Below, in pieces: positions 787 to 59,419 of a DNA stretch of 64,000 bases. The position numbers were made by a program, and so were the translations under genes. The stretch's first letter is position 1; every line of letters starts with the position of its first letter. Under the pieces are notes generated by a model that worked only from the letters and a program-made list of their open reading frames with translations, did no database searches and had not been told where the DNA came from. Location: assembly GCF_001677475.2 (NCBI RefSeq), contig NZ_CP015229.1. One strand, 5' to 3'. Source of the stretch: Escherichia coli. GTDB taxonomy: Bacteria > Pseudomonadota > Gammaproteobacteria > Enterobacterales > Enterobacteriaceae.

Positions 787-1455
787 TTAGTTTTCCTCTT
801 TTGCGACCAGCATATAGCCAAAGCCGCGCACGGTGCGGATACGGGCTTTGCCCACTTTGTCGCGCAGATTGTGGATATGCACTTCCAGGGTGTTAGTCGA
901 GGGTTCATTGTCCCAGTTATAGATGTCGTTGTAGAGAATTTCCCGATGCACCGGACTGCCTGCTTTGAGCATTAACCGTGACAGCAGAGCATATTCTTTG
1001 GGCGTCAGAATCAACTCTTCACCGCCCATCCATACCTGACGGCGACCCATATTCAGCGTCAGATTGCCAACAATCAGCTCACTTTCGCCCTGATTATTAT
1101 GGCGTCGTAGCAGGGCGCGGATACGGGCGTGCAACTCTTCCAGCGCGAACGGTTTTACCAGATAGTCGTCAGCCCCGACATCCAGCCCGGCGATTTTGTC
1201 TGTAAGGGTATCGCGGGCGGTGAGAATTAACACCGGCAGAGTGTATTTTTTCTGCCGGATACGGGCAAGAAAATGCAGCCCATCTTCATCGGGTAAGCCT
1301 AAATCCAGTACCACCAGGCTGTAATGACCGGCCTCAAGGCTTTGTTCCGCCATCCGCGCGGTTGTCACGCCATCGCACGCGTAGCCTTCGGTTTGCGCCG
1401 CCAGAATCAATCCCTGCAATAACAGCGTATCGTCTTCAACAATCAGAATTTTCAT
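787..1455 (-). CDS. basR: Response regulator BasR/PmrA (OmpR family), 222 aa
   Basis: ORF-track protein [16 protein letters not shown]... recognised as BasR; start overlaps eptA stop by 4 nt (ATGA). Confidence 0.95.
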
Positions 1456-3095
1456 TCACTCACTCTCCTGCAAGTTTGCAGAATATCATCCGCAGCCTGG
1501 TAATACTTCGTCTCAACGCCAGTTAATCCCAATAGCGTGGAGAATAAATTGTCTTGTGAATAGTGTTGCGTTTGCGCCTGTTTTTGCAGGCAGTTCTGGT
1601 CAACCTGATACCGTTTTTGATAATCCTCCGACAGCCACAGCAGCATTGGCACCTGTTTTTGGCTATCCGGGGCGATGGCATAAGGCAGACCGTGCAGATA
1701 GATGCCATTTTCACCTAACGATTCACCGTGGTCAGAAAGATAAACCAGGCTGGTGGTAAATTTATCCTGATGTTCTTTCAGCAGATTAATCGCTTTATCA
1801 ACAATATAGTCGACGTAAACCAGCGTGTTGTCGTAAGTGTTCACCAGTTGCTCTTTGGTACAGGTCTGGATCTCATTGGTGTCGCAGGTTGGGGTAAATT
1901 TCCTGAACTGCGGCGGATAGCGGTTGTAATAGGTCGGACCGTGGCTGCCGATGGTGTGTAAGACAATCACGCCATCACCCTGCAGGTTATTGATGTACTC
2001 TTCCAGCCCGTGGAACAGCACTTCGTCATAGCATTCGCCGTTGATGCACTGACCAGGCAGATTCAGCGCGGTGACGTTCTGGTGAGGCACGCGGTCGCAG
2101 GCACCTTTACAGCCACCATCGTTGTCATTCCACAGCACGTTGATGCCCGCTCGCTGAATGATATCCAGCACGCCTTCCTGGTGCTGTGCCAGCTCTTCTT
2201 TGTAATGCTCACGCGGCATATCCGAGAACATACACGGTACTGAAACTGCCGTTGCCGTGCCGCAAGATGCGGTATTAGGGAAATAGACCACGTTATCTTT
2301 CGCCAATCGCGGGTTAGTTTCACGCGGGTAGCCGTTGAGGGAGAAGTTCTCCGCCCGCGAGGTTTCGCCGACAATCAGGATGGTCAAATTTTTACGTTTT
2401 TCGTTCTGCATTAACGGGTTGCGGTGCGCGTCTTCACCAATTCGCACCAGCGGCAGATTTGCCAGTCGCTGATGGGAGTACCATGACCAGCTGGCAACAA
2501 TGCTGTTAGAGGGGCTTAAGGACTTCACCAGCTCTTTGTTGTTGCGGAACAACGAGGCGTAGTCTTTATAAAACAGTGCGGCGACCAGCAAAATCAGCAG
2601 TACAGAAACCAGAATATTGGCTCCACGGAAAAGAACACTGCGCAGACGCGAGGTGGCAGGTTTGATTTTTATCCAGCAGGCAATCAGCGCAGCAAGCACG
2701 CCGCTGAATCCCAGCGTTAATAACATTTGCGGTGTCATCAGCGCATAACTTTCTGCCGGAGTGGTATCAATAATATTGGCAATCATCGAGCGGTCGATGA
2801 CGATGCCGTAAGTCATTATGAAATATTGTGCAGCCGCGCCAACCAGAATAAACAGGCAGGCCAGCGGTCGATTAAGCCATAAGAAAGAGCTTAGTGTCAG
2901 GACAATATTAATCACGCTGAAGGCGACGACCGGCATCGACAAGAAAACCAGTACGTTATGCAGCGAGTCCAGCGGCAGCGCCTGCAACACCTGTTTAAAA
3001 AAGGCAATATTCAGGCAGATAGAGATATAAAAAGCGGCCAACAATAGCCAGGCGAGTAAATTCAAAGAGGGTCTTTTTAGTAGGCGCTTCAACAT
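1452..3095 (-). CDS. eptA: Lipid A phosphoethanolamine transferase EptA/PmrC, 547 aa
   Basis: ORF 1452..3140 recognised as EptA; the recognised N-terminus [14 protein letters not shown] begins at the internal ATG 3095..3093, so the track ORF is 15 codons over-extended. Confidence 0.9.
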
Positions 3096-3141
3096 CACGG
3101 TGTTTCCATCGAACAAAGTGCGCATATGCTCGCAAAGCAAA

Positions 3142-3158
3142 ATTAAGCCAACCTTAAG
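3142..3158 (-). promoter_or_regulatory. Putative BasR/PmrA box (CTTAAG-N5-CTTAAT on the minus strand) upstream of eptA, embedded in a 14-bp-arm perfect palindrome (3145..3174)
   Basis: Reverse complement of 3142..3158 reads CTTAAGGTTGGCTTAAT, matching the PmrA direct-repeat consensus YTTAAK-N5-YTTAAK; lies about 47 bp upstream of the eptA ATG. Confidence 0.5.
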
Positions 3159-3198
3159 TTCTTAAGGTTGGCTTTTATGTGTGCTGGATTAAGGGGAA

Positions 3199-4536
3199 TT
3201 AATCTTTGCTTATTGGTGCATCTAAGGGATACGGGTTTTTATGCAGCCTGTTGTAATTCAGCGCATACATGGCGGTGATGACCATCAGGGTGACAAATGA
3301 CCACATAACCTCTTTCGCCCCGGACCCCACAACGGCCCAAATGCAGTAGAGGAAGGCAATGGTAGTAACAGCCAGATATGCCGGGCGTGCTTTACCAAAG
3401 TGACCGTGGCCGAGCAGCAGTAACGCCGCACAGGTGTAAAGATATGGCACCAGTGTAAAGATGACCGAGACGGAAGAAACCAGACCGAACTCTTTGGTCG
3501 CGTTTGGTGAAATGCTGCTGAGCTGGAAGATGGTCATCAAAATACCGACGATAATCAGCCCCGCCACTGGCGTACCCGCTTTATTTACACGGGCAAAAAT
3601 CGGTGGGAACAGTCCGTCATCGGCAGCGGCTTTCGCCGTTTGACCCGCCAGCAATGTCCAGCCGCCCAGTGAACCTAAGCAACCCGCAGCTGCGCAGAAG
3701 GAAACAATGGCCCCGGCGGTGTCACCCAACGCCATCCGTGCGGCATCACCGAATGGCGAGGCAGAAACGCGCAGTGCGGCATTAGGGATCATCCCCATAA
3801 TCGCGGTGGTGGAGAGTACATAGCAAACGGCGGCAATCAATACCCCACCAATGGTGGCGATAGGGACATTGCGTTTCGGGTTTTTCACCACACCTGCGGC
3901 AACGGAGGCACTTTCCACACCGATGAACGACCACAGCGTAACGTTAAGGGTACTTTGAATTGCACCGAAGGTGCCCAGGCCGCTGACGTTCCATGCCGCC
4001 ATATAGGTTTCACCACGGAACCAGAACCAGCCAAATACGGCAATCCCGACGATGGGGATCAGCGCCAGCACGGTGGCAACGGCCTGCACGCGGGTGATCA
4101 TTTTCGGACCGACAATGTTCAGCAGGACGAAGATCCACAGCACCACGACGCAGGTGATGGTTAATACCAGTGGATCTTTCAGAATCGGGAAGAAGTAACT
4201 TAAATATCCTACGCCAATGACCACCATGGCGATATTGCCGATCCAGCAGGCCAGCCAGTAGAGGACGTTGGTTTGATAACCGAGAAACGGGCCAAAGCAG
4301 CGGCGGGCGTAAGCGTAAGAACCACCAGGACTTGGGTCGAGGAACGACATTTTGGCGTATACCATCGAGAGCCCCAGCGCACCGATAATCGTCACCAACC
4401 ATCCATAAATGGCAATCCCGCCAGTGGAGGCCAGGTTTGCAGGTAACAGAAAAACACCTGACCCCATAATATTCCCCGACACCATCAGGGTGACGGGGAT
4501 TAAGCCCACTTTGTGAGCATCAGCATCCGAAGACAT
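3199..4536 (-). CDS. adiC: Arginine:agmatine antiporter AdiC, 445 aa
   Basis: Protein [36 protein letters not shown]... recognised as AdiC (APC family). Confidence 0.95.
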
Positions 4537-8224: not shown

Positions 8225-9133
8225 TTAGCCGGGAAACGTCTGGCGGCGCTGTTGGCTAAGTTTGCGGTATTGTTGCGGTGACATGCCGACATATTTGCCG
8301 AACGTGCTGTAAAAACGGCTACTCGAACGAAAGCCTGCCGTCAGGGCAATATCGAGAATACTTTTATCGGTATCGCTCAGTAACGCGCGAACGTGGTTGA
8401 TGCGCATCGCGGTTATGTACTGTTTCATCGTCAATTGCATGACCCGCTGGAATATCCCCATTGCATAGTTGGCGTTAAGTTTGACGTGCTCAGCCACATC
8501 GTTGATGGTCAGCGCCTGATCATAGTTTTCGGCAATAAAGCCCAGCATCTGGCTAACATAAAATTGCGCATGGCGCGAGACGCTGTTTTTATGTGTGCGC
8601 GAGGTTTTATTGACCAGAATCGGTTCCCAGCCAGAGAGGCTAAATCGCTTGAGCATCAGGCCAATTTCATCAATGGCGAGCTGGCGAATTTGCTCGTTCG
8701 GACTGTTCAATTCCTGCTGCCAGCGGCGCACTTCAAACGGACTAAGTTGCTGTGTCGCCAGTGATTTGATCACCATACCGTGAGTGACGTGGTTAATCAG
8801 GTCTTTATCCAGCGGCCAGGAGAGAAACAGATGCATCGGCAGATTAAAAATCGCCATGCTCTGACAGGTTCCGGTATCTGTTAGTTGGTGCGGTGTACAG
8901 GCCCAGAACAGCGTGATATGACCCTGATTGATATTCACTTTTTCATTGTTGATCAGATATTCCACATCGCCATCGAAAGGCACATTCACTTCGACCTGAC
9001 CATGCCAGTGGCTGGTGGGCATGATATGCGGTGCGCGAAACTCAATCTCCATCCGCTGGTATTCCGAATACAGCGACAGCGGGCTGCGGGTCTGTTTTTC
9101 GTCACTGCTGCACATAAACGTATCTGTATTCAT
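8225..9133 (-). CDS. melR: AraC-family melibiose operon activator MelR, 302 aa
   Basis: Protein recognised as MelR; divergent from melAB. Confidence 0.95.
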   Translation of the reverse strand: MNTDTFMCSSDEKQTRSPLSLYSEYQRMEIEFRAPHIMPTSHWHGQVEVNVPFDGDVEYLINNEKVNINQGHITLFWACTPHQLTDTGTCQSMAIFNLPMHLFLSWPLDKDLINHVTHGMVIKSLATQQLSPFEVRRWQQELNSPNEQIRQLAIDEIGLMLKRFSLSGWEPILVNKTSRTHKNSVSRHAQFYVSQMLGFIAENYDQALTINDVAEHVKLNANYAMGIFQRVMQLTMKQYITAMRINHVRALLSDTDKSILDIALTAGFRSSSRFYSTFGKYVGMSPQQYRKLSQQRRQTFPG

Positions 9134-9282
9134 GGAGGACTCTCTTTCCTAGAATATCAGAATTATGGCAGGAGTGAGGGAGGATGACTGCGAGTGGGAG
9201 CACGGTTTTCACCCTCTTTTCAGAGAGGCGAGGGGACTGTCCGAGCATCATGAGGCCGAAAACTCTGCTTTTCAGGTAATTT

Positions 9283-9338
9283 ATTCCCATAAACTCAGAT
9301 TTACTGCTGCTTCACGCAGGATCTGAGTTTATGGGAAT
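9283..9338 (+). promoter_or_regulatory. melAB promoter core: two 18-bp MelR target sites as a perfect inverted repeat (9283..9300 and 9321..9338) flanking a 20-bp spacer with a weak CRP-like half-site
   Basis: ATTCCCATAAACTCAGAT and its exact reverse complement ATCTGAGTTTATGGGAAT separated by 20 bp; the 38-bp centre-to-centre spacing and the distance to melA fit the described MelR site 1/site 2 arrangement at -100.5 and -62.5. Confidence 0.7.
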
Positions 9339-9415
9339 GCTCAACCTGGAAGCCGGAGGTTTTCTGCAGATTCGCCTGCCATGATGAAGTTATTCAAGCA
9401 AGCCAGGAGATCTGC

Positions 9416-10771
9416 ATGATGTCTGCACCCAAAATTACATTTATCGGCGCTGGTTCGACGATTTTCGTTAAAAATATTCTTGGTGATGTGTTCCATCGCG
9501 AGGCGCTGAAAACGGCGCATATTGCCCTGATGGACATTGACCCCACCCGCCTGGAAGAGTCGCATATTGTGGTGCGTAAGCTGATGGATTCAGCAGGGGC
9601 CAGCGGCAAAATCACCTGCCACACCCAACAGAAAGAAGCCTTACAGGATGCCGATTTTGTCGTGGTGGCATTTCAGATTGGCGGTTATGAACCTTGCACG
9701 GTGACTGATTTCGAGGTCTGTAAGCGGCATGGTCTGGAACAAACCATTGCCGATACGTTGGGGCCGGGCGGTATTATGCGCGCGCTACGTACCATTCCGC
9801 ATCTGTGGCAAATTTGCGAGGACATGACGGAAGTCTGCCCCGATGCCACCATGCTCAACTACGTTAACCCAATGGCGATGAATACCTGGGCGATGTATGC
9901 CCGCTATCCGCATATCAAACAGGTCGGGCTGTGCCATTCGGTGCAGGGAACGGCGGAAGAGCTGGCGCGTGATCTCAATATCGACCCGGCTACGCTGCGT
10001 TACCGTTGCGCAGGTATCAACCATATGGCGTTTTACCTGGAACTGGAGCGTAAAACCGCCGACGGCAGTTACGTGAATCTCTACCCGGAACTGCTGGCGG
10101 CTTATGAAGCAGGGCAGGCACCGAAGCCGAATATTCATGGCAATACTCGCTGCCAGAATATTGTGCGCTACGAAATGTTCAAAAAGCTGGGCTACTTCGT
10201 CACGGAATCGTCAGAACATTTTGCTGAGTACACGCCGTGGTTTATTAAGCCAGGTCGTGAGGATTTGATTGAGCGTTATAAAGTACCGCTGGATGAGTAC
10301 CCGAAACGCTGCGTCGAGCAGCTGGCGAACTGGCATAAAGAGCTGGAGGAGTATAAGAACGCCTCCCGGATTGATATTAAACCGTCACGGGAATATGCCA
10401 GCACAATCATGAACGCTATCTGGACTGGCGAGCCGAGTGTGATTTACGGCAACGTCCGTAACGATGGTTTGATTGATAACCTGCCACAAGGATGTTGCGT
10501 GGAAGTAGCCTGTCTGGTTGATGCTAATGGCATTCAGCCGACCAAAGTCGGTACGCTACCTTCGCATCTGGCCGCTCTGATGCAAACCAACATCAACGTA
10601 CAGACGCTGCTGACCGAAGCCATTCTTACGGAAAATCGCGACCGTGTTTACCACGCCGCAATGATGGACCCGCATACTGCCGCCGTGCTGGGCATTGACG
10701 AAATATATGCTCTTGTTGACGACCTGATTGCCGCCCACGGCGACTGGCTGCCAGGCTGGTTGCACCGTTAA
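9416..10771 (+). CDS. melA: Alpha-galactosidase MelA (NAD/Mn-dependent), 451 aa
   Basis: Protein MMSAPKITFIGAGSTIFVKNILGDV... recognised as MelA. Confidence 0.95.
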   Translation: MMSAPKITFIGAGSTIFVKNILGDVFHREALKTAHIALMDIDPTRLEESHIVVRKLMDSAGASGKITCHTQQKEALQDADFVVVAFQIGGYEPCTVTDFEVCKRHGLEQTIADTLGPGGIMRALRTIPHLWQICEDMTEVCPDATMLNYVNPMAMNTWAMYARYPHIKQVGLCHSVQGTAEELARDLNIDPATLRYRCAGINHMAFYLELERKTADGSYVNLYPELLAAYEAGQAPKPNIHGNTRCQNIVRYEMFKKLGYFVTESSEHFAEYTPWFIKPGREDLIERYKVPLDEYPKRCVEQLANWHKELEEYKNASRIDIKPSREYASTIMNAIWTGEPSVIYGNVRNDGLIDNLPQGCCVEVACLVDANGIQPTKVGTLPSHLAALMQTNINVQTLLTEAILTENRDRVYHAAMMDPHTAAVLGIDEIYALVDDLIAAHGDWLPGWLHR

Positions 10772-10873
10772 AACGCGACTAAACGCTACTGCGCCGGGGG
10801 ATTTATTCCGGCGCACACCTCTGACGATACCAATAACAGAAGGCGGGCGTTGGTAACAACGACCCGATACCCT

Positions 10874-12295
10874 ATGAGCATTTCAATGACTACAAAACTC
10901 AGTTATGGATTTGGAGCGTTCGGGAAGGATTTTGCGATCGGCATTGTGTATATGTACCTCATGTATTACTACACCGATGTCGTCGGGCTGTCTGTGGGTT
11001 TGGTCGGTACTTTGTTTCTGGTGGCGAGGATCTGGGATGCTATTAACGATCCGATTATGGGATGGATTGTAAATGCTACGCGATCGCGATGGGGCAAGTT
11101 CAAACCCTGGATCCTGATCGGTACGTTGGCAAACTCTGTAATCTTATTTCTCCTCTTTAGTGCGCATCTGTTTGAAGGTACTACTCAGATTGTCTTTGTT
11201 TGCGTGACCTACATCCTCTGGGGCATGACTTACACCATTATGGATATTCCCTTCTGGTCGCTGGTTCCAACCATAACGCTCGATAAACGTGAGCGCGAAC
11301 AACTGGTTCCTTATCCGCGTTTTTTTGCCAGTCTGGCAGGCTTTGTTACGGCAGGTGTGACGCTACCATTTGTTAATTATGTCGGCGGTGGCGATCGGGG
11401 ATTTGGCTTTCAGATGTTCACTCTGGTACTGATCGCCTTTTTTATTGTTTCAACCATCATCACTCTGCGCAATGTGCATGAAGTCTTTTCGTCAGACAAT
11501 CAACCGTCTGCTGAAGGAAGCCATCTGACACTTAAAGCCATCGTTGCGCTTATTTATAAAAACGATCAGCTTTCATGCCTCTTGGGTATGGCTCTTGCTT
11601 ATAATGTAGCCAGCAATATTATTACCGGCTTTGCTATCTATTATTTCTCATATGTTATCGGTGATGCGGATTTGTTCCCCTATTATCTGTCGTATGCGGG
11701 AGCTGCTAACCTGGTGACGTTAGTATTCTTCCCACGCTTAGTTAAATCATTATCCCGACGCATTTTATGGGCCGGAGCATCTATTCTTCCGGTGTTAAGC
11801 TGTGGTGTTCTCCTGTTAATGGCATTAATGAGCTATCACAACGTCGTCCTCATTGTGATTGCGGGTATCTTGCTGAATGTGGGAACGGCGCTTTTCTGGG
11901 TATTACAGGTCATCATGGTGGCAGATACCGTTGATTACGGTGAATATAAACTGCACGTACGCTGTGAAAGCATCGCTTACTCCGTGCAGACTATGGTGGT
12001 GAAGGGCGGTTCAGCCTTTGCGGCTTTTTTCATTGCGGTTGTGTTAGGGATGATTGGCTATGTACCGAATGTTGAACAGTCTACGCAAGCCCTATTAGGT
12101 ATGCAGTTTATTATGATTGCTCTACCGACTCTGTTTTTCATGATAACGCTGATTCTCTACTTCCGTTTCTATCGCCTCAATGGTGACACGCTGCGCAGGA
12201 TCCAGATCCATCTGCTGGATAAATATCGCAAAGTACCGCCCGAGCCTGTTCATGCTGATATTCCGGTCGGTGCAGTGAGTGATGTGAAAGCCTGA
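10874..12295 (+). CDS. melB: Melibiose:Na+ symporter MelB, 473 aa
   Basis: ORF 10850..12295 recognised as MelB; the recognised N-terminus [16 protein letters not shown] starts at ATG 10874 (track ORF begins at an upstream TTG). Confidence 0.92.
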
Positions 12296-30056: not shown

Positions 30057-30132
30057 TGGTGCCCGGACTCGGAATCGAACCAAGGACACGGGGATTTTCA
30101 ATCCCCTGCTCTACCGACTGAGCTATCCGGGC
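30057..30132 (-). tRNA. pheU: tRNA-Phe (anticodon GAA), 76 nt
   Basis: Reverse complement reads GCCCGGATAGCTCAGTCGGTAGAGCAGGGGATTGAAAATCCCCGTGTCCTTGGTTCGATTCCGAGTCCGGGCACCA, the canonical E. coli tRNA-Phe. Confidence 0.95.
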
Positions 30133-43935: not shown

Positions 43936-44004
43936 GCGATAGTCACAAAGGTAATAGTTGAAATTCCCCTGCCACCTGGCAAAATATCCGTTCAACCATC
44001 AGCT

Positions 44005-44049
44005 TTGCAGGACGACCTGCAAACGCGTCTTTTCACCGGGGACGGCCCC
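44005..44049 (+). promoter_or_regulatory. Candidate guanidine-II (mini-ykkC) riboswitch in the gdx 5' leader
   Basis: Two hairpins each closed by an ACGR tetraloop: TTGCAGG-ACGA-CCTGCAA (44005..44022) and GGGG-ACGG-CCCC (44038..44049), 15 nt apart, 19 nt upstream of the gdx ATG; this is the mini-ykkC architecture typically found upstream of SugE/Gdx-type exporters. Confidence 0.65.
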
Positions 44050-44067
44050 AATTCTCCGGAGCCTGAT

Positions 44068-58999: not shown

Positions 59000-59075
<76 letters not shown>

Positions 59076-59232
59076 AAATTTGAAAAGTGCTGCAAAGCAC
59101 AGACCACCCAATCGCAGTATTTCGAATTGCGACAAGGCGGCAACTGAACGAATCCTTGGGAGCTTACAAAAGTAAGTGACTAAGGTGAGTGAAGGCAGCC
59201 AAGGCAGTAGCGGTTCGAAAGACGAAGATTAA

Positions 59233-59308
<76 letters not shown>

Positions 59309-59343
59309 AAATTTGAAGGTGCTGTAAAGCACAGACCACCCAA

Positions 59344-59419
<76 letters not shown>

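What the first reader, a model, noticed from the sequence alone, without database searches (positions are those of the whole stretch)
9283..9338. Perfect 18-bp inverted repeat pair in the melR-melAB intergenic region (MelR sites 1 and 2)
ATTCCCATAAACTCAGAT (9283..9300) and its exact reverse complement (9321..9338) are separated by 20 bp. A perfect 18-bp inverted repeat is far beyond chance and matches the described MelR site 1/site 2 arrangement, with a CRP site in the spacer, that drives melibiose-dependent activation of melAB; additional weaker sites are expected downstream (about 9340..9360) and over the melR promoter.
Basis: partly seen in the sequence, partly recalled or inferred. Interest (0 to 1): 0.45.

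Follow-up and report, generated by a model that had tools for sequence, protein, structure and literature searches.

The report
MelR operator sites 1 and 2

Summary
**Verdict: confirmed, and already known.**

- **The repeat is real.** ATTCCCATAAACTCAGAT (9283-9300) and its exact reverse complement (9321-9338) are separated by 20 bp. It is the only such repeat in the 64 kb window; about 6e-5 are expected by chance.
- **Location.** It lies between melR (8225-9133, minus strand) and melA (9416-10771, plus strand).
- **Match to K-12.** From about 9247 to the melA start the window is base-for-base identical to E. coli K-12, the strain in which the mel regulatory region was dissected.
- **Match to published landmarks** (Samarasinghe 2008, PMC2377442). 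The melR -10 hexamer CATAAT sets melR +1 at 9155. Site 2, published at -174.5, then centres on 9329.5, exactly the centre of the right arm. The only other copy of the 18-mer is site 1.
- **Other sites in register.** CRP1 falls on the dyad. Site 1' (9263-9280), site 2' (9341-9358), site R (9145-9162) and CRP2 (9186-9207) all fit.
- **Conservation.** In 76 of 78 melR loci from other species the pair is present, 72 with the same 38-bp centre spacing. The arms are conserved and the spacer is not.
- **Not a hairpin.** Changes in one arm are not compensated in the other.
- **Protein covariation.** MelR residue 273 covaries with operator position 13.
Site 1' was omitted. The repeat also serves melR autorepression. 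Perfect symmetry is specific to Escherichia.

The parts
8225..9133 (-). melR, the AraC/XylS-family regulator that reads the repeat
   Evidence: NCBIfam MelR equivalog at 635.8 bits against a cut-off of 253. The protein is 100% identical to K-12 MelR and has N222 and R273.
9145..9162 (-). MelR site R (autorepression site overlapping the melR start); reads TTCTGATATTCTAGGAAA on the melR-sense strand
   Evidence: Matches the consensus at 12 of 18 positions, with G5 and A13 as described in PMC2377442. It spans -7 to +11 of the melR promoter. The motif TTCTGATAATTCAGGAAA is conserved in many genera. The window differs from K-12 at position 12 (T versus C; window base 9151).
9162..9167 (-). melR -10 hexamer CATAAT; the inferred melR transcript start is 9155
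   Evidence: The hexamer sequence is given in PMC2377442. ATTATG occurs only once in the intergenic region. The +1 position is inferred from the usual placement of the hexamer at -12 to -7.
9186..9207 (.). CRP2, the CRP site that activates the melR promoter, centred at 9196.5 (-41.5 from melR +1)
   Evidence: The paper places it 41 bp upstream of the melR start. It matches the CRP consensus at 12 of 22 positions and has G7 and C16.
9263..9280 (+). MelR site 1' (CTCTGCTTTTCAGGTAAT), 20 bp from site 1
   Evidence: Matches the consensus at 12 of 18 positions on the + strand and 5 of 18 on the - strand; 0.10 such matches are expected in the intergenic region. The left half CTCTxCTTTT is conserved across genera, with a mean of 1.00 bit per position. 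The mean PWM score on the + strand is -18, against a background of -46.5 and -40 on the - strand. The published orientation could not be retrieved.
9283..9300 (-). MelR site 1 (left arm; consensus ATCTGAGTTTATGGGAAT read on the - strand)
   Evidence: It is the only other copy of the 18-mer found at site 2. The paper says site 1 and site 2 both carry the consensus. Mean conservation is 1.41 bits per position across 70 loci.
9300..9321 (.). CRP1, the weak CRP site centred on the dyad axis at 9310.5
   Evidence: The paper places a CRP site between site 1 and site 2 and inactivates it at positions 7 and 16. The window has G7 and C16 but matches the consensus at only 6 of 22 positions. G7 and C16 are kept in the divergent E. 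coli allele. The site is not recognisably conserved across genera.
9321..9338 (+). MelR site 2 (right arm; ATCTGAGTTTATGGGAAT)
   Evidence: Its centre, 9329.5, equals -174.5 from melR +1 at 9155, as published. It has G5 and G13 as in the published consensus. Mean conservation is 1.52 bits per position.
9341..9358 (.). MelR site 2', a poor site overlapping the melAB -35 region that is occupied only with melibiose
   Evidence: Its existence and melibiose dependence are stated in PMC2377442. The position is 20 bp from site 2, mirroring 1'/1, and the -42.5 figure is from memory of Belyaeva 2000. It matches the consensus at only 3 of 18 (+) or 7 of 18 (-) positions. Mean conservation is 0.67 bits, and the orientation cannot be called from sequence.
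9380..9392 (+). melAB core promoter: -10 hexamer CATGAT (9380-9385) and inferred transcript start A at 9392
   Evidence: The position is 237 bp from melR +1, as stated in PMC2377442. No consensus sigma-70 promoter is found here, as expected for an activator-dependent promoter.
9416..10771 (+). melA (alpha-galactosidase), first gene of the regulated operon
   Evidence: NCBIfam match at 736 bits. The same start is annotated in K-12.
10874..12295 (+). melB (melibiose:sodium symporter), second gene of the operon
   Evidence: NCBIfam MelB equivalent at 902 bits, matching from residue 9 of the ORF that starts at 10850. The start follows the K-12 annotation.

Best explanation
The two arms are MelR binding sites 1 (9283-9300) and 2 (9321-9338) of the divergent melR-melAB control region of E. 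coli.

Each 18-bp arm binds one MelR monomer through its two helix-turn-helix motifs. HTH1 reads around base 5 and HTH2 around base 13. The two monomers face opposite ways around a weak CRP site on the dyad.

Without melibiose, MelR occupies sites 1', 1, 2 and R. It represses its own promoter through a four-MelR complex and leaves melAB 'poised'. With melibiose and cAMP-CRP, MelR also fills the poor site 2' next to the melAB -35 region. The complex of four MelR molecules plus CRP then activates melAB transcription from about 9392.

Binding and activation are shown experimentally in the literature for this identical sequence. The mapping onto window coordinates and the conservation analysis are shown here. 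The exact positions of 1', 2' and CRP1 relative to the melAB +1 rest partly on my memory of papers not held in the library.
For: - melR, melA and melB flank the repeat.
- The window is identical to K-12 over about 9247-9425, and its MelR protein is identical to K-12 MelR.
- PMC2377442 gives the following: the consensus 18-mer is found at sites 1 and 2, with G5 and G13; site 2 is at -174.5; the two starts are 237 bp apart; CRP1 lies between sites 1 and 2; the melR -10 hexamer is CATAAT; CRP2 is 41 bp upstream of the melR start; site R overlaps the melR start; DNase I footprints show occupation of 1', 1, 2 and R; the system is described as poised, with autorepression.
- All of these landmarks map in register onto the window.
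- Phylogenetic footprint: 76 of 78 melR loci carry the pair, 72 of them at 38-bp centre spacing. Arms average 1.41 and 1.52 bits per position against 0.26 for the spacer.
- Conserved positions 1-7, 9-10 and 13-16 form two blocks, which fits two HTH contacts.
- All 6 loci with Ser273 in MelR have lost G13 in the operators (11 of 12 sites). By contrast, 60 of 65 Arg273 loci keep G in both arms. This matches the published contact between R273 and base pair 13.
Against: - No binding experiment was done on this particular genome.
- The primary papers giving positions -120.5, -100.5, -81.5, -62.5 and -42.5 and the site orientations (Belyaeva 2000, Wade 2000 and 2001, Grainger 2003) are not held in the library. 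Those numbers are from memory.
- The melR +1 position is inferred from the -10 hexamer and was not read from a published sequence figure.
- CRP1 is a poor consensus match (6 of 22) and is not conserved across genera.
- Site 2' is not recognisable from sequence.
Confidence: 0.97

Rival explanations
1. The repeat acts as a nucleic-acid structure: a DNA cruciform, or an RNA hairpin serving as a terminator or attenuator, and not as two protein binding sites.
For: As single-stranded DNA, the region 9275-9346 folds at -20.5 kcal/mol, against -4.9 for shuffles (z = -8.3). Any perfect 18-bp inverted repeat would do this.
Against: - The repeat lies between the two divergent transcript starts (9155 going left, 9392 going right), so neither mRNA contains it.
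- No run of T follows the stem, and the terminator scan does not call it.
- Across 66 distinct arm pairs, the variable positions 11, 12, 17 and 18 differ between arms at the rate expected for independent evolution. The observed mean is 14.4 shared positions against 13.9 expected if the arms were independent, so there is essentially no compensatory change.
- Most species have imperfect arms, with a mode of 15 of 18.
Confidence: 0.01
2. The arms are terminal inverted repeats or a remnant of a small mobile element (MITE or IS scar).
For: The inverted repeat is perfect, and a divergent intergenic allele exists in about 1,000 E. coli genomes.
Against: - The 18-mer occurs nowhere else in the window, even with 3 mismatches allowed.
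- A 56-bp unit is too small for a mobile element.
- It sits at the orthologous position upstream of melR in genera from Escherichia to Photobacterium, with fixed spacing.
- In the divergent allele, the arms are the conserved part and the surrounding sequence is what changed.
Confidence: 0.005
3. The palindrome is the operator of a different, dimeric regulator (for example a LacI/GalR-type repressor), and the MelR assignment is coincidental.
For: Palindromic operators are typical of dimeric repressors.
Against: - 18-bp half-sites with centres 38 bp apart do not fit a single dimer.
- The identical K-12 sequence is footprinted by purified MelR.
- The operator's position 13 covaries with MelR residue 273.
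- The repeat accompanies melR even at paralogous loci that lack melA.
Confidence: 0.01

Closest known systems
E. coli K-12 melR-melAB regulatory region (MelR sites 1', 1, 2, 2', R with CRP1 and CRP2; Busby laboratory)
   Same: The sequence is identical from about 9247 to the melA start. This covers both 18-bp arms, the 20-bp spacer, site 1', site 2', the -10 hexamers and the spacing. The MelR protein is also identical. All published landmarks map in register.
   Different: There are eight substitutions relative to K-12 at the melR-proximal end (9137, 9139, 9151, 9219, 9220, 9226, 9239, 9246). One of them, at 9151, falls in site R position 12 (T here, C in K-12). No E. coli complete genome in the collection is identical over the 282-bp intergenic region; the best is 98.2%.
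AraC at araC-araBAD (I1/I2, O1, O2 with a CRP site)
   Same: An AraC-family regulator expressed from a divergent gene. Multiple half-sites of about 17-18 bp each bind one monomer. A sugar triggers occupation of a promoter-proximal weak half-site that overlaps the -35 region. CRP is a co-activator. Distant sites mediate autorepression (the paper's own comparison).
   Different: According to PMC2377442, MelR repression uses four bound molecules and a compacted complex, not a simple two-site loop. [quoted passage not shown]
Orthologous melR-melA control regions in other Enterobacterales and Vibrionaceae
   Same: The same inverted pair is present at 38-bp centre spacing in 72 of 78 loci. The core is conserved as ATCTGAG-TT--GGGA.
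   Different: The arms are usually imperfect (mode 15 of 18; only 1 of 72 species is perfect). The spacers are unrelated in sequence. A CRP site on the dyad is not recognisable outside Escherichia.

Membership tests
MelR operator sites 1 and 2 (mel regulatory region) | Lies in the divergent intergenic region between melR and melAB | tested here: met
   NCBIfam equivalogs for MelR, alpha-galactosidase and MelB flank it. K-12 has the same gene order and annotation.
MelR operator sites 1 and 2 (mel regulatory region) | Two identical 18-bp sequences in inverted orientation carrying the consensus with G at positions 5 and 13 | tested here: met
   The arms are exact reverse complements. Read as ATCTGAGTTTATGGGAAT, they have G5 and G13, as PMC2377442 describes.
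MelR operator sites 1 and 2 (mel regulatory region) | Site 2 centred at -174.5 from the melR start; the melR and melAB starts 237 bp apart | tested here: met
   The unique CATAAT at 9167-9162 gives melR +1 = 9155. Position -174.5 is then 9329.5, the centre of 9321-9338. This places melAB +1 at 9392, an A preceded by CATGAT. The +1 position is inferred from the hexamer.
MelR operator sites 1 and 2 (mel regulatory region) | Sequence identity with the experimentally characterised K-12 promoter | tested here: met
   The alignment is identical from column 123 to the end, which is window positions 9247-9425.
MelR operator sites 1 and 2 (mel regulatory region) | A CRP site between the two arms, with the critical positions 7 and 16 | tested here: met
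   The 22-bp window 9300-9321 is centred on the dyad and has G7 and C16, but matches the consensus at only 6 of 22 positions overall. This is consistent with a weak site.
MelR operator sites 1 and 2 (mel regulatory region) | Accessory sites 1', 2' and R present in register | tested here: met
   Site 1' at 9263-9280 and site R at 9145-9162 are the next-best matches in the region, at 12 of 18 each with 0.10 expected. Site 2' is a poor match, as expected. Its position is taken by symmetry and from memory of the literature.
MelR operator sites 1 and 2 (mel regulatory region) | Cognate regulator with the DNA-contacting residues N222 and R273 | tested here: met
   The window's MelR is identical to K-12 MelR and has N222 and R273.
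MelR operator sites 1 and 2 (mel regulatory region) | Physical binding of MelR and melibiose-dependent activation | not testable with these tools
   Published for the identical K-12 sequence by DNase I footprinting, EMSA, Fe-BABE cleavage and reporter fusions. Indirect support here comes from conservation and from the covariation of residue 273 with base 13.
Intrinsic terminator or structured RNA hairpin | Transcribed, followed by a run of T, with stem pairing kept by compensatory changes | tested here: not met
   It lies between divergent starts. There is no T run and the terminator scan does not call it. The arms vary independently at variable positions.
Mobile-element terminal inverted repeats | Multiple dispersed copies; variable presence at a locus | tested here: not met
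   It is single-copy in the window and is fixed at the orthologous site across genera.

The most novel reading that the evidence does not exclude
The operators and the regulator have co-evolved. In a clade of Buttiauxella-like loci (L046, L048, L049, L050, L053, L055), MelR carries Ser in place of Arg at residue 273, together with His at 269. In the same loci both operator arms have replaced the G at position 13 with A or C. This would be a natural specificity switch at the contact previously defined only by laboratory mutants (R273V with T13). A second, lesser point is that site 1' reads the consensus on the strand opposite to site 1. That would make the whole 1'-1-CRP-2-2' array mirror-symmetric at the sequence level.
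Probability: 0.45. Interest if true: 0.25.

Novelty: already known. Interest (0 to 1): 0.08.

Why it matters
This is a textbook example of co-dependence on two activators (MelR and CRP) and of autorepression by an AraC-family protein, so finding it in an E. coli window adds nothing new. It is useful as a positive control: a reader without tools identified a real regulatory element at exact coordinates. The cross-species data gathered here add modest value. They show which operator positions are constrained (1-7, 9-10, 13-16) and that the 38-bp spacing is nearly invariant. They also show that perfect symmetry and the CRP1 site are Escherichia-specific, and that MelR residue 273 covaries with operator base 13.

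Tried and rejected
1. **Primary papers.** I tried to retrieve the papers with the site coordinates and orientations (PMC125794, PMC146657, PMC1447455, PMC1138231, PMC306891, PubMed ids 12675795 and 10760178). None is held. The supplementary primer table of PMC2377442 is not held either.
2. **Text search on position numbers.** Searching for the numbers 62.5, 100.5 and so on returned only irrelevant papers. PMC4308713 mentions MelR but gives no site details.
3. **Hairpin or cruciform.** Rejected on location and on the lack of compensatory change.
4. **Mobile-element remnant.** Rejected on copy number and orthologous conservation.
5. **Consensus promoter scan.** It found no sigma-70 promoter in 9100-9450. 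This is uninformative, because both promoters depend on activators.
6. **Orientation of site 2'.** A PWM built from 144 orthologous sites gave no clear signal.
7. **CRP1 as a conserved consensus site across genera.** It is not distinguishable from other registers: 3.58 of 10 core matches against 1.8-3.4 elsewhere.

Full report
**Observation**

The window reads ATTCCCATAAACTCAGAT at 9283-9300 and ATCTGAGTTTATGGGAAT at 9321-9338. These are exact reverse complements separated by the 20-bp spacer TTACTGCTGCTTCACGCAGG. It is the only perfect inverted repeat of 16 bp or more with a spacer of 60 bp or less in the 64 kb. The analytic expectation for an 18-bp example is 5.7e-5. First-order Markov (shuffle-like) random sequences generated from the window produced none at 14 bp in 30 trials. 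Allowing three mismatches, the 18-mer still occurs only at these two places, against 0.04 expected. Weaker dyad symmetry continues outward to 42-nt arms at 76% complementarity.

**Context**

The repeat lies in a 282-bp intergenic region. To the left is a 302-aa minus-strand gene that is the NCBIfam MelR equivalog (635.8 bits; cut-off 253). To the right are a plus-strand alpha-galactosidase (melA) and then the MelB melibiose:sodium symporter. adiA lies upstream of melR and yjdF lies downstream of melB. This is the E. coli gene order.

The intergenic region matches 5,400 of 5,426 complete E. coli genomes. The best match is 98.2% and K-12 is 97.8%. The melR-melB block is at most 99.2% identical to any genome in the collection. 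The window is therefore an E. coli-type chromosome that is not identical to any complete genome held.

Alignment with K-12 shows all differences at the melR-proximal end: 9137, 9139, 9151, 9219-9220, 9226, 9239 and 9246. From 9247 to the melA start the two are base-for-base identical. The MelR protein is identical to that of K-12.

**Mapping the characterised sites**

The one accessible primary paper is Samarasinghe et al. 2008 (PMC2377442), which worked on E. coli K-12. It states the following.

[quoted passage not shown] It has G at position 5 (contacted by N222) and G at position 13 (contacted by R273).
- MelR binds two pairs of sites, 2/2' and 1/1', with CRP between the pairs. MelR cannot occupy 2' without melibiose.
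- The melR transcript starts 237 bp upstream of the melAB start, and site 2 is centred at -174.5 from the melR start.
- The melR -10 hexamer is CATAAT. CRP2 lies 41 bp upstream of the melR start. CRP1 lies between sites 1 and 2, and both CRP sites are inactivated by changes at positions 7 and 16.
- Site R overlaps the melR start, has G5 and a non-consensus A13, and is bound in the opposite orientation to site 2.

In the window, CATAAT (ATTATG on the plus strand) occurs once in the intergenic region, at 9167-9162. Placing it at -12 to -7 gives melR +1 = 9155, an A on the minus strand. Position -174.5 is then 9329.5, which is exactly the centre of the right arm 9321-9338. Read on the plus strand, that arm has G5 and G13.

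The only other copy of the 18-mer is the left arm, which must therefore be site 1, in inverted orientation. Adding 237 bp puts melAB +1 at 9392, an A preceded by CATGAT at 9380-9385.

The 22-bp window centred on the dyad (9300-9321) has G7 and C16 but matches the CRP consensus at only 6 of 22 positions. This fits a weak CRP1. The window centred at -41.5 from melR +1 (9186-9207) matches at 12 of 22 positions with G7 and C16, which fits CRP2.

After the two arms, the next-best matches to the 18-mer anywhere in the intergenic region are both 12 of 18, against 0.10 expected.

- 9145-9162 on the minus strand reads TTCTGATATTCTAGGAAA. It has G5 and A13 and spans -7 to +11 of melR. This is site R.
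- 9263-9280 on the plus strand reads CTCTGCTTTTCAGGTAAT. It lies exactly 20 bp from site 1. This is site 1'.

The mirror position 9341-9358 is site 2'. It is a very poor match (3 of 18 on the plus strand, 7 of 18 on the minus strand), in line with its described inability to bind MelR without melibiose.

The positions relative to the melAB start (-120.5, -100.5, -81.5, -62.5, -42.5 and -238.5) are from my memory of Belyaeva 2000 and Wade 2000. They agree with these coordinates but could not be checked, because those papers are not held.

**Independent evidence from other genomes**

A scan of one genome per species with the MelR protein returned 80 loci, from Escherichia, Citrobacter, Salmonella, Klebsiella, Raoultella, Kluyvera, Pantoea, Serratia and Buttiauxella out to Providencia, Vibrio and Photobacterium.

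A search for the best inverted 18-mer pair upstream of melR, without using the E. coli sequence, recovered the same element in most loci.

With all loci in a common register, 76 of 78 carry the pair. In 72 the centres are exactly 38 bp apart, and in 4 they are 39 bp apart. Mean information content per position was:

| Element | Bits per position |
|---|---|
| Site 1 | 1.41 |
| Site 2 | 1.52 |
| Spacer | 0.26 |
| Site 1' | 1.00 |
| Site 2' | 0.67 |

Positions 1-7, 9-10 and 13-16 of the 18-mer are nearly invariant, giving ATCTGAG-TT--GGGA. These two blocks are about a helical turn apart, as expected for two helix-turn-helix motifs.

Within E. coli, about 1,000 genomes carry a divergent intergenic allele at 80-90% identity. 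In that allele the sequence around and between the arms is heavily substituted. Site 1 is nonetheless intact, site 2 has a single change (C3 to A), and CRP1 keeps G7 and C16 even though 8 of its 20 spacer bases differ.

**Perfect symmetry is not the functional requirement**

Only 1 of 72 species has 18 of 18 complementarity between the arms, and the mode is 15 of 18. Across 66 distinct arm pairs the mean number of shared positions is 14.41. The expectation is 13.91 if each arm simply follows the common consensus independently. At the variable positions 11, 12, 17 and 18, the arms differ at the independent rate.

This argues against a base-pairing structure, even though the single strand would fold at -20.5 kcal/mol. 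The element also lies between the two divergent transcript starts, so neither mRNA contains it. No T run follows it.

The small excess of arm concordance is concentrated at position 13. Following this up gave a clear pattern. All six loci whose MelR has Ser at residue 273 have lost G13, in 11 of 12 sites. In contrast, 60 of 65 Arg273 loci keep G in both arms. This natural covariation matches the published R273-base pair 13 contact. It supports, independently of the literature, the conclusion that MelR reads these arms. The six loci are probably one clade, so it may count as a single evolutionary event.

**Mechanism**

The steps below are stated in PMC2377442 for the identical sequence.

1. Each 18-bp site binds one MelR monomer.
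2. [quoted passage not shown] It represses melR through a complex of four MelR molecules. This is a compacted complex and not a simple loop, and it does not depend on CRP. The melAB promoter is left poised.
3. [quoted passage not shown]

The repeat therefore serves both activation of melAB and autorepression of melR. The window coordinates, the conservation and the covariation are shown here. Binding in this particular strain is inferred from sequence identity.

The arms are sites 1 and 2, a CRP site is in the spacer, a weaker site follows at 9341-9358, and another lies over the melR promoter at 9145-9162. Three things were missing: site 1' at 9263-9280, the autorepression role, and the fact that perfect symmetry is specific to Escherichia.

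**Unresolved detail**

By sequence and by conservation, site 1' matches the consensus on the plus strand. That is the same orientation as site 2 and the opposite of its neighbour site 1. The figures are 12 of 18 against 5 of 18, and a mean PWM score of -18 against -40, with a background of -46.5. Its conserved part is the left half, CTCTxCTTTT. The orientation determined experimentally by Grainger et al. 2003 could not be retrieved, so I cannot say whether this agrees with it. The orientation of site 2' cannot be called from sequence.

**Verdict**

This is a real feature, correctly identified and already well characterised. Interest is low.

Noticed in passing
window 9151 (site R position 12): The window has A on the plus strand (T on the melR-sense strand) where K-12 has G (C). 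This makes site R a 12 of 18 match to the consensus, against 11 of 18 in K-12. Strain ES5 shares the variant. Orthologous site R motifs in other genera have C here, and sites 1 and 2 across species use T (58%) or C (42%) at position 12, so the change is probably neutral.
   Followed up: partly
L002 (E. coli AVS0662), compared with window 9195-9320 and the melB region: About 1,012 complete E. coli genomes carry a divergent melR-melA intergenic allele at 80-90% identity. The substitutions cluster between CRP2 and site 2, while the MelR arms are spared. In the example fetched, melB is absent and yjdF abuts melA. About 1,270 genomes do not cover 80% of the melR-melB query. I did not test whether the allele and the loss of melB go together.
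   Followed up: partly
L046, L048, L049, L050, L053, L055 (Buttiauxella-like melR loci): MelR has Ser273 and His269 in place of Arg at both residues, and the operator arms have A or C in place of G at position 13 in 11 of 12 sites. This is natural covariation at the contact defined genetically in E. coli. The loci are probably a single clade.
   Followed up: partly
window 9263-9280 (site 1'): Site 1' matches the MelR consensus on the strand opposite to its neighbour site 1 (12 of 18 against 5 of 18). Its left half CTCTxCTTTT is conserved across genera. At the sequence level the array 1'-1-CRP1-2-2' is therefore mirror-symmetric, in line with the 42-nt extended dyad at 9259-9362. The published orientation could not be checked.
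   Followed up: partly
L060-L068 (Citrobacter), L056 and L064 (Superficieibacter): Several genomes hold a second MelR-like gene at about 73-80% identity. The one tested (L060) passes the MelR equivalog cut-off. These loci have the same inverted repeat upstream. In the two loci examined (L060, L066) melA is not the divergent neighbour. In L060 an NhaC-type antiporter follows the gene and a Sel1-repeat protein lies upstream. What these paralogues regulate is unknown.
   Followed up: partly
L053: The record is titled 'Chryseobacterium sp. 18061' but carries a typical enterobacterial melR locus, at 81% identity and with the Buttiauxella-type operator. It is likely a mislabelled or contaminated assembly.
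   Followed up: no
window 3145-3174: This is the second-longest perfect inverted repeat in the window: AAGCCAACCTTAAG, 2 nt, CTTAAGGTTGGCTT. It lies between two minus-strand ORFs (3199-4536, 445 aa, and 1452-3140) and is flanked by T/A runs. It looks like an ordinary intrinsic terminator.
   Followed up: partly
window 44004-44050 (+): Rfam match to the Guanidine-II (mini-ykkC) riboswitch at 49.3 bits against a gathering score of 32.
   Followed up: no
window 30057-30132 (-) and 59000-59419 (+): One tRNA-Phe (GAA) gene, and three tandem tRNA-Gly (GCC) genes with the same Rfam score (69.1 bits each).
   Followed up: no
window 9194-9212: A terminator-like hairpin call (GTGGGAGCACGGTTTTCAC followed by a T-rich tail) overlaps the CRP2 site. 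One was found against 0.4 expected in shuffles, so it is probably chance.
   Followed up: no
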